The notes beneath the pieces were generated by a model. It was not told the DNA's origin and ran no database searches. It worked only from the letters and a program-made list of their open reading frames with translations. A stretch of DNA of 35,430 nt, from the UHGV virus genome UHGV-0309502. One strand, 5' to 3'. Positions 14,441 through 17,797 of the stretch are shown in pieces. A program made the position numbers and the translations under genes. Origin of the DNA: a virus. Each line of letters begins with the position of its first letter. The first letter of the stretch is position 1.

Positions 14441-15993
14441 CAGTGAAATACTACGCCATTCTGACTAATCAGGGCGCGGCACGACTGGCTAACGCGACGA
14501 TGCTCGGCAGTAAGCTGAATCTGACGCGAATGGCCGTTGGTGATGCAAATGGTGTGTTACCAACACCAGACCCTGCACAAACAAAACTGATTAACCAGAA
14601 ACGCATTGCACCGCTGAATCTTCTGAGTGTTGACCCTAACAATCAGAGCCAGATTATTGCGGAGCAAATCATCCCTGAAAGCGAGGGTGGATTCTGGATC
14701 CGTGAGATTGGTCTTTATGATGATAAAGGTGTACTCATTGCGGTGGCAAACTGCCCGGAAACGTACAAACCGCAGTTGCAGGAAGGCAGTGGACGCACCC
14801 AGACTATCCGCATGATTCTGGTTGTCACGAACACCGAAGCCATCACGCTGAAAATCGACCCGTCTGTGGTTCTGGCAACCCGCAAATATGTGGATGATAA
14901 AATCTCAAAGCACGAGCAGTCACGACGTCACCCGGACGCCTCGCTGACCGCAAAAGGCTTTGTTCAACTTAGCAGTGCCACGGACAGTCAATCAGAAACT
15001 GAGGCTGCCACGCCGAAGGCTGTGAAAATCGCGTATGATCTGGCCTGGGGAAAATACACAGCCCAGGATGCAACAACGACCCGTAAAGGGATCGTACAAC
15101 TGAGCAGTGCCACCAACAGCACCTCTGAAACGCTGGCCGCCACACCAAAAGCCGTCAAGGCGGCATACGACCTTGCAGCCGGCAAGGCCCCCGTCAGCCA
15201 CACTCACCCATGGAGTCAGATAACGGGAGTGCCTGCTGCCTCGCTGACGGCAAAAGGCACCGTACAACTGAGCAGTGCCATCAACAGCACGTCTGAAATA
15301 CTGGCCGCCACACCGAAAGCGGTCAAGGATGCATACGATCTGGCAAACGGAAAACAACCGGCAGATGCCACGCTCACTGCTCTGGCAGGACTTGCCACTG
15401 CAGCAGATCGGTTGCCTTATTTTACCGGAGCAGACCGCGCAGCGCTGGCAACCCTTACAGCTATTGGTCGCGCTATTATCGCTAAGGGCAGTATAAAAGA
15501 TGTCCTCAATTACCTTGGTTTGGGGGAAGGCTCTGCATTGCCTGTTGGTGTACCGGTTCCATGGCCCACCGCCACACCGCCAGCAGGCTGGTTACAGTGC
15601 AACGGAGCTACGTTCACCAAAGAACAATATCCTGTTCTGGCCAGAGTCTACCCGACCCTCCGTCTTCCCGATTTACGCGGTGAGTTTATCCGTGGATGGG
15701 ACGACGGGCGCAAGATTGACGAGGGGCGTAAGTTGCTTTCATGGCAGAAAGGTACACTGGTCGGCGGTCATGACGATAACGATTCTGCGCTTGATATCTC
15801 GTACATGAGTAACGGAAATAATATTGACTATGGCGGCGATAAGGTGTTTGCGGGGAATTACCGTAGCGATTATTTGTGGTACGCAATACTGGGTGGAACA
15901 AACAGTCGCGCAAAAGCCGAATTAAACGGAGCATTCTTTAACATAACCCGCCCCCGCAATATCGCGTTTAACTATATCGTGAGGGCGGCGTGA
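14437..15993 (+). CDS. H: tail fibre protein H (constant N-terminal part plus currently attached variable C-terminal cassette)
   Basis: 518 aa; ATGA overlap with I; conserved N-terminus; three tail-fibre repeats; C-terminal cassette lies inside the invertible segment. Confidence 0.85.
   Translation: MTVKYYAILTNQGAARLANATMLGSKLNLTRMAVGDANGVLPTPDPAQTKLINQKRIAPLNLLSVDPNNQSQIIAEQIIPESEGGFWIREIGLYDDKGVLIAVANCPETYKPQLQEGSGRTQTIRMILVVTNTEAITLKIDPSVVLATRKYVDDKISKHEQSRRHPDASLTAKGFVQLSSATDSQSETEAATPKAVKIAYDLAWGKYTAQDATTTRKGIVQLSSATNSTSETLAATPKAVKAAYDLAAGKAPVSHTHPWSQITGVPAASLTAKGTVQLSSAINSTSEILAATPKAVKDAYDLANGKQPADATLTALAGLATAADRLPYFTGADRAALATLTAIGRAIIAKGSIKDVLNYLGLGEGSALPVGVPVPWPTATPPAGWLQCNGATFTKEQYPVLARVYPTLRLPDLRGEFIRGWDDGRKIDEGRKLLSWQKGTLVGGHDDNDSALDISYMSNGNNIDYGGDKVFAGNYRSDYLWYAILGGTNSRAKAELNGAFFNITRPRNIAFNYIVRAA
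14938..15357 (+). repeat. three tandem phage tail-fibre repeats inside H
   Basis: Peptide repeats T[AR]KG.VQLSSA..S.SE..AATPKAVK.AYDLA occur three times; the underlying DNA copies are clearly related. Confidence 0.8.
15503..15528 (-). other. gix/hix/cix-like 26-bp recombination site (left end of invertible segment)
   Basis: Minus-strand reading TTCCCCCAAACC-AA-GGTAATTGAGGA; compare recalled gix TTCCTGTAAACC-GA-GGTTTTGGATAA; inner half-site is identical to that of the right site. Confidence 0.55.
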
Positions 15994-15999
15994 TACCGT

Positions 16000-16614
16000 T
16001 CAACTGGCAAGTGCCAGTGGCGCTTCCGGCCAGCTGATTTCAGGTGCCGTGCTGATATCCAGTGCGTTCAGCTCGTCGATATAATCCAGCACGGCGTTCA
16101 GTTTTGCCGTTTCTTCTGGTGTCAGACTGCGACCAGCACGCAGTTTGAGGTTGATAAGATCGACGGACGCCATCGCCTGTTTCACCCGTTGCTGGCGTTG
16201 CTGTCTGGCAACCTCCAGTTCTGCGGCTCGCTGCCGTTCAGTATCGGTTACCCACGCCTCACCGTTCCAGGTATCCCATGGCGTGGCTGGCTGTTTTGTG
16301 GTGGTGTCCGCCGGGTAATCACCCGGTTGGGTAATCAGAACAGGGTTACCGTTCTCCGTGCTGTATACCGTCTCGCCGCGGTGATCAGGCACATGCTCCC
16401 ACCCGTTCAGCGTGGCAGTCCGGCAAACCACGTAACCCGAAATTGCCTCCGGCGGTGCATCGGCGCACGAATGTGCCGGAGTACCCACCCCAAGGGCGAG
16501 ATACTCCACAGAGGATGAGGTGTATTCCCGGGTTTCCTCGTCATAGTGATATACAGTGATATCGCCCGCTACAGTGGCGATACCGTTTTCATCCAGAACT
16601 GCAGTGTTACTCAT
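16000..16614 (-). CDS. tail fibre assembly chaperone (Tfa family)
   Basis: 204 aa; TAATG-coupled directly downstream of the alternative cassette on the minus strand; typical Tfa C-terminus. Confidence 0.75.
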   Translation of the reverse strand: MSNTAVLDENGIATVAGDITVYHYDEETREYTSSSVEYLALGVGTPAHSCADAPPEAISGYVVCRTATLNGWEHVPDHRGETVYSTENGNPVLITQPGDYPADTTTKQPATPWDTWNGEAWVTDTERQRAAELEVARQQRQQRVKQAMASVDLINLKLRAGRSLTPEETAKLNAVLDYIDELNALDISTAPEISWPEAPLALAS

Positions 16615-17131
16615 TAAACTGCCCTCACAATGTAATTAAGTGCAATGCTACGGGGTCTGACAGTGATACCCTTCGCATACCCGCTTCTGATAGAGGTCAG
16701 AATAGTAGCCTGCATACCATTGTCTGACATTGCCACGACAGGATCGCTGAATGTTGTCCCGTCCGGCATTTTAAAGCTGCCCTCACGAAGGTCTGTAATG
16801 GAATCTTCATTGTTGAATCCCATGCCGACTATCCCCGAGGTTCCCGTAGTGTCCTGGTTATAATAATCCAGCATTGCTGTTCTTAACAGCGTTGCCCCTT
16901 GTGCGGACAGCAACTTACGTCCTGTATCAACTTTGCGCCCGTCGTCCCATCCACGGATAAACTCACCGCGTAAATCGGGAAGACGGAGGGTCGGGTAGGC
17001 TCTGGCCAGAACAGGATATTGTTCTTTTGTAAAGGCGCGCCCGTCGCACTTTAACCAGCCTTCTGGCGGTGTGGCGGTGGGCCACGGAACCGGTACACCA
17101 ACAGGCAATGCAGAGCCTTCCCCCAAACCAA
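16614..17131 (-). CDS. alternative tail-fibre C-terminal cassette (Sv'-like), silent in this orientation
   Basis: Minus-strand frame whose first ~70 codons (GLGEGSALPVGVPVPWPTATPP...DDGRK) nearly duplicate the H segment after the crossover site, then diverges; ORF finder extends it to 17183 but no independent start is expected. Confidence 0.65.
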
Positions 17132-17143
17132 CGTTTTCGTTTT
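17118..17143 (+). other. gix/hix/cix-like 26-bp recombination site (right end of invertible segment)
   Basis: TTCCCCCAAACC-AA-CGTTTTCGTTTT; same inner half-site and central AA as the left site; 55 bp upstream of the invertase start. Confidence 0.55.
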
Positions 17144-17197
17144 TATCCCTACCTATACCAACTCTGTATTTTTCACGAAACAAAGAGGATGTTTTTT

Positions 17198-17797
17198 ATG
17201 CAAATTGGCTATATTCGTGTGTCAACAAACGACCAGAACACGGATTTACAACGCAATGCACTGAACTGCGCAGGATGTGAACTGATTTTTGAAGATAAAA
17301 TCAGCGGAACGAAATCAACCAGACCGGGATTGAAAAAACTGCTCAGAACGCTATCAGAAGGAGATACGCTGGTTGTCTGGAAGCTGGACAGACTGGGCAG
17401 AAGTATGAAACACCTGATCACGCTTATTGAGGAATTGCGGGAAAAAGGTGTTAATTTCCGTAGTCTGACGGACAGCATTGACACGTCAACACCCATGGGG
17501 CGTTTCTTTTTTCACGTCATGGGGGCTTTAGCCGAAATGGAACGTGAATTAATTGTAGAGCGTACACTGGCCGGGCTGGCAGCAGCACGCGCACAAGGAC
17601 GCATTGGCGGACGTCGCCCGAAGTTGACAAAAGAACAACACGAGCAAATAGCGAGGCTGATTAAAAACGGTCATGACAGGAAACAACTGGCGATCATTTA
17701 CGACATCGGCATATCGACGATTTATCGTTATCACCCTGTAGGCGATATACAGGCTGAAGAAACAACCAGACAGACTCAGGAAAATGAAAACCGCTAA
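17198..17797 (+). CDS. serine DNA invertase (Hin/Gin/Cin/Pin family)
   Basis: 199 aa; IGYIRVSTNDQNTDLQRNAL, TLVVWKLDRLGRS, MGRFFFHVMGALAEMERELIVERTLAGLAAARAQGR and C-terminal HTH closely match recalled Hin/Gin. Confidence 0.9.
   Translation: MQIGYIRVSTNDQNTDLQRNALNCAGCELIFEDKISGTKSTRPGLKKLLRTLSEGDTLVVWKLDRLGRSMKHLITLIEELREKGVNFRSLTDSIDTSTPMGRFFFHVMGALAEMERELIVERTLAGLAAARAQGRIGGRRPKLTKEQHEQIARLIKNGHDRKQLAIIYDIGISTIYRYHPVGDIQAEETTRQTQENENR

What the first reader, a model, noticed from the sequence alone, without database searches (positions are those of the whole stretch)
15503..17797. Hin/Gin-type invertible tail-fibre cassette with flanking gix-like sites
Tail fibre gene H runs through a 26-bp gix-like site (15503-15528) into a variable C-terminal cassette. 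A second site with the identical inner half-site and central AA lies at 17118-17143, next to a Hin/Gin-family invertase. Inside, on the opposite strand, are an alternative fibre C-terminus and a Tfa chaperone. About 200 bp inside each site are near-identical inverted repeats by eye. This looks like a host-range switch of the Mu G-segment type grafted onto a P2-like tail fibre.
Basis: partly seen in the sequence, partly recalled or inferred. Interest (0 to 1): 0.5.

Follow-up and report, generated by a model that had tools for sequence, protein, structure and literature searches.

The report
Invertible tail-fibre host-range switch
This is an ordinary, intact copy of a well-known phage device: a Gin/Pin-type DNA invertase flips a 1.6-kb segment so that the P2-like tail fibre gene gets one of two alternative receptor-binding tips.

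Summary

- **Sites:** two 26-bp crossover sites lie in inverted orientation. The left is 15503-15528 (TCCTCAATTACC|TT|GGTTTGGGGGAA) and the right is 17118-17143 (TTCCCCCAAACC|AA|CGTTTTCGTTTT). They head a 229-nt, 90% inverted repeat.
- **Segment contents:** the 1.6-kb segment holds the current fibre tip (Sv), one tail-fibre assembly gene, and a promoterless alternative tip (Sv') on the other strand.
- **Invertase:** the adjacent 199-aa serine recombinase aligns full-length with Gin (E 2e-91). It is 76-83% identical to Gin, Cin and PinE.
- **Site similarity:** the sites match e14 pix best, then cix and gix.
- **In-silico inversion:** flipping gives an in-frame 531-aa fibre followed directly by tfa.
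- **Both orientations in nature:** each occurs in hundreds of complete E. coli genomes, with the breakpoint at the sites. The loci examined include prophages carrying the identical invertase and two near-identical urine isolates (U13A, U14A).
- **Background:** the window is a P88-like (Xuanwuvirus) P2-family phage. Such switches in E. coli P2-like prophages have been shown experimentally (PMC4272514).

The kind is already known, so interest is low. The one oddity is a single tfa for two tips, three in relatives. That tfa is never co-oriented with the tip now expressed.

The parts
14437..15514 (+). Constant part of tail fibre gene H. It has a P2 H-type N-terminus followed by three Phage_fiber_2 repeats.
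   Evidence: Pfam hits PF12571 (E 1e-61) and PF03406 x3. The first ~460 nt are 93-95% identical to H of P2-type phages.
15503..15528 (+). Left 26-bp crossover site, TCCTCAATTACC|TT|GGTTTGGGGGAA, lying inside the H reading frame.
   Evidence: It aligns with the e14 pix, P1 cix and Mu gix sites. Natural inversions break here.
15517..15993 (+). Sv: the fibre C-terminal tip currently fused to H (158 aa), with a Collar domain. It is StfE-type.
   Evidence: Pfam Collar. PDB T4 gp37 tip 2xgf, E 1e-14. 53% identical to e14 StfE.
16000..16614 (-). Tail-fibre assembly (chaperone) gene, TfaE-type, 204 aa. It is the only tfa in the segment.
   Evidence: Pfam Caudo_TAP, E 3.5e-28. 59% identical to e14 TfaE. 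After inversion it follows H-Sv' with a TAATG stop/start overlap.
16614..17129 (-). Sv': silent, promoterless alternative fibre tip (171 aa inside the segment), with a Collar domain.
   Evidence: Pfam Collar, E 4e-16. PDB 9cuy/2xgf. In-silico inversion fuses it in frame to H, giving a 531-aa fibre. That fusion is annotated as the tail fibre protein in L003 and L004.
17118..17143 (+). Right 26-bp crossover site, TTCCCCCAAACC|AA|CGTTTTCGTTTT.
   Evidence: 18 of its first 19 nt match the e14 right pix site.
15512..15740 (.). Left arm of the 229-nt inverted repeat. It encodes the shared Collar-domain start of both tips.
   Evidence: I1, 90% complementary. Diagnostic differences between the arms are mapped.
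16906..17134 (.). Right arm of the 229-nt inverted repeat.
17198..17797 (+). DNA invertase, a serine recombinase of 199 aa.
   Evidence: Pfam Resolvase (E 2e-51) and HTH_7. Gin structure 4m6f, E 2.4e-91, residues 1-185 aligned. 82.8% identical to PinE and 75.6% to Gin and Cin. 100% identical to RefSeq WP_001375851.1 in loci of both orientations.
17216..17287 (+). Candidate recombinational (Fis) enhancer, assigned by homology only. It is nt 19-90 of the invertase gene.
   Evidence: It corresponds to the enhancer annotated in the P1 cin gene. Identity is 56/72 nt to P1 and 62/72 to pinE. Synonymous codons are somewhat more conserved here than in the rest of the gene. Function was not tested.
17787..17816 (.). 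12-bp-stem hairpin, AAAACCGCTAAT...ATTAGCGGTTTT, between the convergent invertase and gpU genes. It is probably a bidirectional terminator.
   Evidence: I11, 100% complementary; terminator-like. Function is inferred.

Best explanation
This is an active Gin/Cin/Pin/Hin-family site-specific inversion switch that controls the receptor-binding tip of the tail fibre of a P88-like (P2-family) temperate phage.

**Mechanism.**
- The invertase (17198-17797) binds the two 26-bp sites.
- By analogy with Gin and Hin, the sites are assembled with a Fis-bound enhancer lying in the 5' end of the invertase's own gene.
- The enzyme makes 2-bp staggered cuts at the central TT/AA, rotates the strands and religates. 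This inverts the 1,615-bp segment.

**The two states.**
- In the orientation seen here, the late operon makes H-Sv (518 aa).
- In the other orientation it makes H-Sv' (531 aa) followed directly by Tfa.
- A lysogen population therefore releases two virion types with different host ranges.

**Shown here:** the sites, the intact invertase, the in-frame fusions, and natural isolates in both states with the breakpoint at the sites.

**Inferred:** enhancer and Fis dependence, the inversion rate, and the difference in host range.
For: - **Sites:** they are unique in the window and inverted, with an identical inner half and an identical central dinucleotide. They align with pix, cix and gix.
- **Invertase:** it matches Gin end to end (E 2.4e-91) with the RVSTNDQ catalytic-serine motif conserved. 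It is 76-83% identical to Gin, Cin and PinE.
- **In-silico inversion:** it gives a 531-aa in-frame fibre, and tfa then overlaps its stop codon (TAATG).
- **Left junction in E. coli:** the predicted inverted junction is present at 80% coverage or more in 327 complete genomes, and the native junction in 201.
- **Right junction in the P88-like context:** this query includes the invertase and the gpU end. At 100% coverage and >=97% identity, 10 genomes are inverted and 17 are native.
- **Direct comparison with L003:** window 15515-17134 is inverted at 99.5% identity, while the flanks stay collinear at 99.0-99.5%.
- **Same enzyme, both states:** the same 199-aa invertase (0 differences) is found in loci of both orientations.
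- **Near-identical isolates:** U13A and U14A have genomes of 5,061,273 and 5,061,272 bp with the prophage at the same coordinates. They differ by this inversion.
- **Arm markers:** the diagnostic differences between the arms stay linked to their own tip up to the outermost 44 nt.
- **Experimental precedent:** flipping of such loci in P2-like prophages of EPEC was shown by sequencing and PCR (PMC4272514).
Against: - No reads are available, so heterogeneity in this sample is not shown.
- The enhancer is supported only by homology. A simple G-N13-C scan for conserved Fis sites was uninformative.
- No sigma-70-like promoter for the invertase was found at the scan's threshold.
- The Sv-ON state has no co-oriented tfa, so it is unproven that this state yields functional fibres.
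Confidence: 0.9

Rival explanations
1. The inversions seen among genomes arise from RecA-dependent homologous recombination between the 229-nt inverted repeats, not from the invertase acting at the 26-bp sites.
For: The arms are 90% identical, with perfect blocks of 44 and 66 nt. Exchange between arms does happen. Two loci (L014, L016) have arms that switch type within the 66-nt block. Several others carry small patches of the other arm's markers.
Against: In the 12 loci examined, the arm joined to H carries the markers of its own tip, apart from isolated patches at one to three of the 32 marker positions. No locus has the reciprocal pair of chimeric arms that a crossover inside the repeat would leave. 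The chimeric arms are non-reciprocal, which indicates gene conversion. Inverted blocks end at the central dinucleotide. An intact, conserved invertase and pix-like sites sit exactly at the repeat ends.
Confidence: 0.04
2. The module is a fossil in this copy. Sites and gene are intact, but the switch is locked, for example through no invertase expression or a defective enhancer, and the phage makes only H-Sv.
For: No sigma-70-like promoter was detected near the invertase. The enhancer is not demonstrated. Only one orientation is visible in a single sequence.
Against: The invertase protein is identical to the one in loci found in both orientations, including a near-identical isolate pair. The sites are identical to those of the flipped relatives. 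The silent tip and tfa are intact ORFs.
Confidence: 0.05
3. The switch mainly serves the lysogen rather than the virion. This need not exclude the main explanation. Alternative StfE-type tips expressed from the prophage would block adsorption of other phages, as reported for e14 StfE2 after PinQ-driven inversion.
For: Sv and Sv' are 53% and 47% identical to e14 StfE. The sites are pix-like, so host Pin-family invertases could act on them. The precedent is PMC12529663.
Against: Here the tips are C-terminal parts of a complete fibre gene. That gene lies in the late operon of a complete phage genome with capsid, terminase, tail, integrase and replication genes. No promoter was found inside the segment. 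No data on expression in lysogens are available.
Confidence: 0.04

Closest known systems
e14 P segment / PinE (E. coli K-12 cryptic prophage)
   Same: This is the closest match for the sites. The inner half is TTCCCCCAAACC against TTCTCCCAAACC, both have a central AA/TT, and the right site matches at 18 of its first 19 nt. It is the closest of the classical invertases (Gin, Cin, PinE), at 82.8% aa and 83% nt at the 5' end. The tips are StfE-type and the chaperone is TfaE-type (59% identity).
   Different: e14 has two tfa genes (tfaP, tfaE) and one non-collar tip (StfP), and it is a defective lambdoid remnant. Here both tips are StfE-type, there is one tfa, and the phage is a complete P2-family genome. 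The 3' third of the invertase is P88-like, not Pin-like.
Phage Mu G segment / Gin
   Same: The architecture is the same: constant fibre 5' part outside, alternative 3' parts and chaperone inside, and the invertase just outside the right site. The invertase is 75.6% identical and aligns full-length with the Gin structure.
   Different: Mu has a GA/TC core, a 3-kb segment, S/S' tips of a different fold family, and two chaperones (U, U').
Phage P88 and other Xuanwuvirus (Peduoviridae) invertible fibre loci
   Same: The phage backbone is the same, at about 94-95% nt identity over 76-80% of the first 25 kb. The locus has the same position, between fibre gene H and the reversed gpU-tape measure operon. 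The invertase is 86.7% identical.
   Different: P88 and P88_4B11 carry a Mu-like cassette with two tfa genes and gix-like sites with a GA core. The window carries the collar-tip, single-tfa cassette with pix-like sites.
Invertible and shufflon-like fibre loci in P2-like prophages of EPEC E2348/69 (Goldberg et al. 2014, PMC4272514)
   Same: These are P2-like prophages of E. coli. One locus has a two-repeat switch. Another has three inverted repeats giving three alternative fibre C-termini and four isomers, all shown to coexist in culture. Relatives of the window (L001, L004, L013, L015, L018) have exactly that three-site layout.
   Different: I could not establish whether the EPEC loci are the same sequence module. 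The coordinates were not in the held text.
P1 C segment / Cin and p15B Min multiple-inversion system
   Same: These are Cin-family invertases (75.6% identity) with AA-core sites. The enhancer is annotated in the 5' end of cin, and the homologous stretch is present here. The multi-site variants in relatives recall Min (the Min comparison is from my own knowledge).
   Different: In P1 the invertase lies on the other side of the segment relative to the fibre gene. The tips are Mu-like S/S', with two chaperones.

Membership tests
Gin/Cin/Pin/Hin DNA-invertase switch (serine invertase family) | A small serine recombinase (~190 aa) with an N-terminal catalytic domain, a C-terminal HTH and the catalytic serine at about position 9-10. 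| tested here: met
   Pfam Resolvase and HTH_7. The protein is 199 aa. The motif MQIGYIRVSTNDQ aligns with Gin MLIGYVRVSTNDQ. The S9A crystal variant 3uj3 shows A where the window has S.
Gin/Cin/Pin/Hin DNA-invertase switch (serine invertase family) | High sequence identity to the characterised invertases, well above that to resolvases. | tested here: met
   Identity is 82.8% to PinE and 75.6% to Gin and Cin over aa 1-180. Against PDB, Gin scores E 2e-91 while gamma-delta resolvase scores E 1e-31.
Gin/Cin/Pin/Hin DNA-invertase switch (serine invertase family) | Two 26-bp crossover sites (12-2-12, imperfect dyads) in inverted orientation, with identical central dinucleotides. | tested here: met
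   The inner halves are identical, the core is TT/AA, and the conserved AAACC/GGTTT positions are shared with pix, cix and gix.
Gin/Cin/Pin/Hin DNA-invertase switch (serine invertase family) | A cis-acting recombinational enhancer with Fis sites, located in the 5' part of the invertase gene in Gin, Cin and Hin. | tested here: inconclusive
   The stretch homologous to the annotated P1 cin enhancer is present, at 56/72 nt identity to P1 and 62/72 to pinE. Its synonymous-codon conservation is slightly raised. However, it is coding sequence, and a Fis-motif scan was uninformative.
Gin/Cin/Pin/Hin DNA-invertase switch (serine invertase family) | The segment actually inverts, with exchange at the sites. 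| tested here: met
   The evidence is comparative only. Both orientations occur in natural genomes with the identical invertase, and block ends fall at the central dinucleotide. Arm markers are consistent with exchange within the outermost 44 nt. Flipping within one culture was not testable here.
Gin/Cin/Pin/Hin DNA-invertase switch (serine invertase family) | Dependence on Fis and DNA supercoiling (the invertasome). | not testable with these tools
   The residue aligned to the M114V substitution in the crystallised Gin (4m6f) is M here. That M114V makes Gin Fis-independent is from my own knowledge.
Mu G-type tail-fibre host-range cassette | A constant fibre N-terminus outside the segment, with alternative C-termini inside that are in frame in both orientations. 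| tested here: met
   H-Sv is 518 aa. H-Sv' is 531 aa after in-silico inversion. Both forms are annotated as the fibre protein in relatives.
Mu G-type tail-fibre host-range cassette | Each alternative tip is followed by its own co-oriented assembly chaperone (U and U'). | tested here: not met
   Only one tfa is present (16000-16614). It is convergent with Sv, with stop codons 6 nt apart. Mu, P1, P88 and e14 all have two.
Mu G-type tail-fibre host-range cassette | The two orientations give different host ranges. | not testable with these tools
   The tips share the Collar domain and the C-terminal RPRxIAxNYIVRA motif but differ completely over about 80-90 aa in between. The phenotype is unknown.

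The most novel reading that the evidence does not exclude
One chaperone serves several tips, and the state seen in this window (Sv ON) never has tfa on the coding strand of the fibre operon. Two readings follow.

- **Reading 1:** StfE-type collar tips such as Sv fold without a Tfa.
- **Reading 2:** tfa is expressed in that state by another route. One example would be read-through from the convergent gpU/tape-measure late operon across the hairpin at 17787-17816 and antisense through the invertase gene.

The second reading would make convergent late operons a way of expressing the central chaperone in both orientations. In a darker version, Sv-ON virions are fibre-defective, so the switch acts partly as an infectivity on/off switch.
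Probability: 0.2. Interest if true: 0.4.

Novelty: already known. Interest (0 to 1): 0.12.

Why it matters
It matters little for discovery. The finding is a clean, correctly read example of a classical phage bet-hedging device.

Practical value:
- **Annotation:** the 'phage tail protein' fragments on the minus strand are silent cassettes, not pseudogenes.
- **Assembly and typing:** prophage orientation differences between near-identical isolates are programmed, not misassemblies.
- **Host-range prediction:** one genome encodes two fibres.

The single-chaperone layout, and the library of at least six interchangeable collar-type tips seen in relatives, could be a convenient system for asking what Tfa proteins actually recognise.

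Tried and rejected
- **Fis sites:** I scanned the first 130 nt of six invertase genes for conserved G-N13-C 15-mers. Only two positions came up, 23 bp apart and not AT-rich in all genes. This was uninformative for the enhancer.
- **P2 Ogr-type late-promoter motif TGT-N12-ACA:** one copy lies at 17165-17182, between the right site and the invertase ATG. However, the window has 4 matches against 8.35 expected by chance, and the spacing fits neither strand. I rejected it as chance.
- **Sigma-70 promoter scan of 15400-18400:** no hits on either strand. There is thus no evidence for an invertase promoter or for a promoter driving tfa in the Sv-ON state.
- **Extra cryptic crossover sites:** AAACCNNSGTTT and the half-site with up to 2 mismatches find nothing convincing beyond the two sites. 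This copy is therefore a two-site switch.
- **EPEC coordinates:** I looked in PMC4272514 and its supplements for the coordinates of the EPEC loci, to test identity with this module. They were not found.
- **RNA scans:** Rfam at gathering thresholds and tRNA scans of the window found nothing.
- **Homologous recombination as the inversion mechanism:** considered and largely rejected on the arm-marker patterns.
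Full report
**Observation.**
- The left site, 15503-15528, reads TCCTCAATTACC TT GGTTTGGGGGAA. The right site, 17118-17143, reads TTCCCCCAAACC AA CGTTTTCGTTTT.
- The 12-nt inner half-site occurs exactly twice in the 35,430-bp window, on opposite strands.
- The sites head an inverted repeat of 229 nt at 90% complementarity, 15512-15740 and 16906-17134.
- The central dinucleotides are identical once one site is turned round. A 2-bp staggered-cut invertase needs this for religation (established knowledge of the Hin/Gin family).

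**Anatomy.**
- ORF 14437-15993 (518 aa) is a tail fibre. It has a P2 H-type N-terminus (PF12571), three Phage_fiber_2 repeats and a C-terminal Collar domain. It reads through the left site.
- Inside the segment on the minus strand lie a Caudo_TAP assembly gene (16000-16614, 204 aa) and a second Collar-domain C-terminus, 16614-17129.
- Both tips match the collar domains of T4 gp37 and gp12 in the PDB.
- Just outside the right site is a 199-aa Resolvase + HTH_7 protein, 17198-17797.
- Upstream are P2-type baseplate genes V, W, J and I. Downstream, on the other strand, are gpU, tape measure, E, tube and sheath.

**Invertase.**
- It aligns over residues 1-185 with the Gin crystal structures (4m6f E 2.4e-91; 3uj3 E 1.2e-90). 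Resolvases score far lower (E 1e-31).
- The catalytic-serine motif RVSTNDQ is intact. At the position where 4m6f carries V (M114V), the window has M.
- Over aa 1-180 it is 82.8% identical to e14 PinE, 75.6% to Mu Gin and P1 Cin, and 86.7% to the P88 invertase.
- It is mosaic. The first ~180 nt are most like pinE (78-83%). The last ~180 nt are 85-92% like P88 and only about 50% like pinE.

**Sites compared with known crossover sites.** I took gix, cix and pix from the Mu, P1 and E. coli K-12 records rather than from memory.
- Written outer half | core | inner half, the window sites line up with all of them.
- They are closest to e14 pix. The inner half is TTCCCCCAAACC against TTCTCCCAAACC, the core is AA/TT, and the right site matches in 18 of its first 19 nt.
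- Mu and P88 sites have a GA/TC core.

**Consequence of inversion.** Inverting 15517-17129 in silico keeps the frame.
- H becomes a 531-aa protein ending in the Sv' tip.
- tfa then starts at the fibre's stop codon (TAATG).

**Does it flip?** No reads are available, so I used public complete E. coli genomes.
- **Left junction.** The predicted inverted junction (H constant part + Sv' + tfa) is present at 80% coverage or more in 327 genomes. Many are single uninterrupted matches at 99.5% identity. The native junction is present in 201 genomes.
- **Right junction.** This query includes the invertase and the gpU end, so it is specific for the P88-like context. The inverted form is found at 100% coverage and >=97% identity in 10 genomes, the native form in 17.
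- **One flipped relative in detail.** In NZ_OZ040035 (L003), window 15515-17134 aligns in reverse at 99.5% identity. The flanks (12000-15345 and 16906-19000) align collinearly at 99.5% and 99.0%.
- **Other pairs.** The same 1,620-nt block is the only rearrangement between other pairs of relatives, apart from a third cassette in two of the four loci.
- **Same enzyme.** The invertase protein of the window is identical (0 of 199 differences) to that in three loci of each orientation.
- **Near-identical isolates.** Two urine isolates from one place, U13A and U14A, have genomes of 5,061,273 and 5,061,272 bp with the prophage at the same coordinates. They differ by this inversion. Those two assemblies contain small errors, so the sites themselves are not all readable there.

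**Site-specific or homologous?** The two arms differ at 32 positions in the first 240 nt. The longest identical blocks are 44 nt (outermost) and 66 nt.
- In 12 loci, the arm joined to H carries the markers of the tip it belongs to, apart from isolated patches at one to three positions.
- No locus has the reciprocal pair of chimeric arms that a crossover inside the repeat would leave.
- Two loci have an arm that switches type in the 66-nt block, and several show one- or two-marker patches. These are non-reciprocal, which indicates gene conversion between the arms.
- This favours exchange at the 26-bp sites. It cannot place the exchange more finely than the outermost 44 nt.

**Context and spread.**
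- The window is a complete P88-like phage genome (Xuanwuvirus, Peduoviridae). Identity to P88, P88_4B11, 500465-2 and phiSM is 94-95% over 76-80% of the first 25 kb. Capsid, terminase, tail, integrase, repressor and gpA replication genes are present.
- P88 itself has an invertible locus at the same place. Its cassette is Mu-like, with two tfa genes and gix-like sites.
- A P2-type phage (Peduovirus magyaro) also has fibre, tfa, tfa', fragment and invertase.
- The collar-tip cassette of the window is found at about 99% identity at the end of transposable prophages inserted in different host genes, including dgcQ, yehY, idi and gspL. These carry a 190-aa invertase that is 87% identical. One was checked and has a DDE transposase, MuB-like ATPase, Gam and Mor.
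- Relatives of the window also exist with a third site and a third silent tip (L001, L004, L013, L015, L018). This is the three-repeat, four-isomer layout.
- Across the sampled loci there are at least six different tip types. All are intact, and all share the Collar start and the C-terminal RPRxIAxNYIVRA motif.

**What is known.**
- Goldberg et al. 2014 detected and PCR-verified flipping of a two-state locus and of a three-repeat 'shufflon' in P2-like prophages of EPEC E2348/69 (PMC4272514).
- A 2024 preprint notes DNA invertases and inverted neighbours in the fibre hotspot of P2-like phages.
- Gene-altering inversions of tail fibres have been confirmed by long reads across bacteria (PMC9881135).
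- The e14 P segment, the nearest relative of this cassette, has recently been linked to blocking of T2 adsorption (PMC12529663).

**The one unusual point.** Mu, P1, P88 and e14 each have a chaperone gene for each tip. This module has one.
- It follows Sv' and is convergent with Sv, with stop codons 6 nt apart.
- In the state seen in the window, Sv ON, tfa lies antisense to the fibre operon.
- No promoter was found that would express tfa in this state.
- A strong hairpin at 17787-17816 stands between it and the convergent gpU operon.
- Sv tips are nevertheless intact in all loci. Like Sv', they show a two-residue hotspot of amino-acid variation, which hints that they are used.
- Whether Sv needs Tfa is open.

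**Limits.**
- The enhancer is inferred from homology with the stretch annotated in P1 cin: 56/72 nt to P1 and 62/72 to pinE. Identical codons among conserved residues are 45-63% there against 30-41% elsewhere.
- Invertase expression, Fis dependence, inversion rate and host-range effect are all inferred from the family.

**Verdict.** The kind is already known, so interest is low.

Noticed in passing
window 14953-15353 (H gene repeats); L001-L004 3649-4085: The fibre gene has three Phage_fiber_2 repeat units here. The closest relatives (L001-L004) have four, through an in-frame 168-bp difference. The fibre shaft length therefore varies by repeat gain or loss.
   Followed up: partly
L001 5850-6333; L004 5919-6444; L013, L015, L018: Close relatives carry a third crossover site and a third silent fibre tip between Sv' and the invertase. 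This gives a shufflon-like system with three tips and four isomers. One isomer (H-tip3, then Sv'-tfa co-oriented) is seen in L015.
   Followed up: partly
L012-L019, L020 (E. coli chromosomes): The same cassette, about 99% identical and including the last ~300 nt of the constant fibre part, sits at one end of Mu/BcepMu-like transposable prophages. These are inserted in different host genes (including dgcQ, yehY, idi and gspL) and carry a different 190-aa invertase (87% identical). The switch module is exchanged between phage families.
   Followed up: partly
window 17198-17797: The invertase gene is mosaic. Its 5' part is most like e14 pinE (78-83% nt). Its 3' third, which includes the HTH domain and tail, is 85-92% like P88 and only about 50% like pinE.
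   Followed up: yes
window 15883-15888 (Sv codons 123-124) and 16731-16736 (Sv' codons 132-133): Among 10 copies of each tip, the tip-specific part varies at very few codons. In each tip two adjacent residues carry up to three alleles each: A/V and I/M/V in Sv, I/M/V and A/T/V in Sv'. These may be receptor-contact hotspots.
   Followed up: partly
window 15991-16002: The Sv stop codon and the tfa stop codon are convergent and only 6 nt apart. Mu, P1, P88 and e14 each have a second chaperone gene for their other tip, and none exists here.
   Followed up: partly
window 26320-26375, next to integrase 26481-27482 (-): A stretch (TGGTACCCGGAGCGGGACTTGAACCCGCACAGCGCGAACGCCGAGGGATTTTAAA) looks like the reverse complement of the 3' half of a tRNA gene. 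ARAGORN finds no complete tRNA. It is probably the attP core. If so, the window is a free or circularly permuted phage genome rather than an integrated prophage.
   Followed up: partly
window 9015-10895 (+): A 626-aa ORF among the late genes has DUF1737, a SASA carbohydrate (sialic-acid-type) acetylesterase domain and DUF6645. It may be a surface-glycan deacetylase of the virion or a lysogenic-conversion gene.
   Followed up: no
window 34407-35302 (+): A 133-aa ORF matches only the N-terminal part of ParM/StbA. It is followed by a weak Mom-family ORF that scores below the Pfam cutoff. Both lie downstream of the gpA replication gene.
   Followed up: no
window 25000-29000: This is a low-GC block (0.40-0.45 against about 0.55 elsewhere). 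It holds the integrase, a DUF2511 protein, an HTH repressor-like gene and a small cysteine-rich ORF with a hydrophobic N-terminal stretch that looks like a signal peptide (25500-25895). It resembles a typical accessory or immunity region. An Ogr-type zinc-finger ORF lies at 24719-24979.
   Followed up: no
L021 vs L022 (E. coli U13A / U14A, NZ_CP035477 / NZ_CP035516): Two urine isolates have genomes differing by 1 bp in length and carry the prophage at the same coordinates with the fibre segment in opposite orientations. The active tip in U14A is a third type (154 aa), not Sv. The assemblies show scattered small errors, including in the G5 run of the sites.
   Followed up: partly
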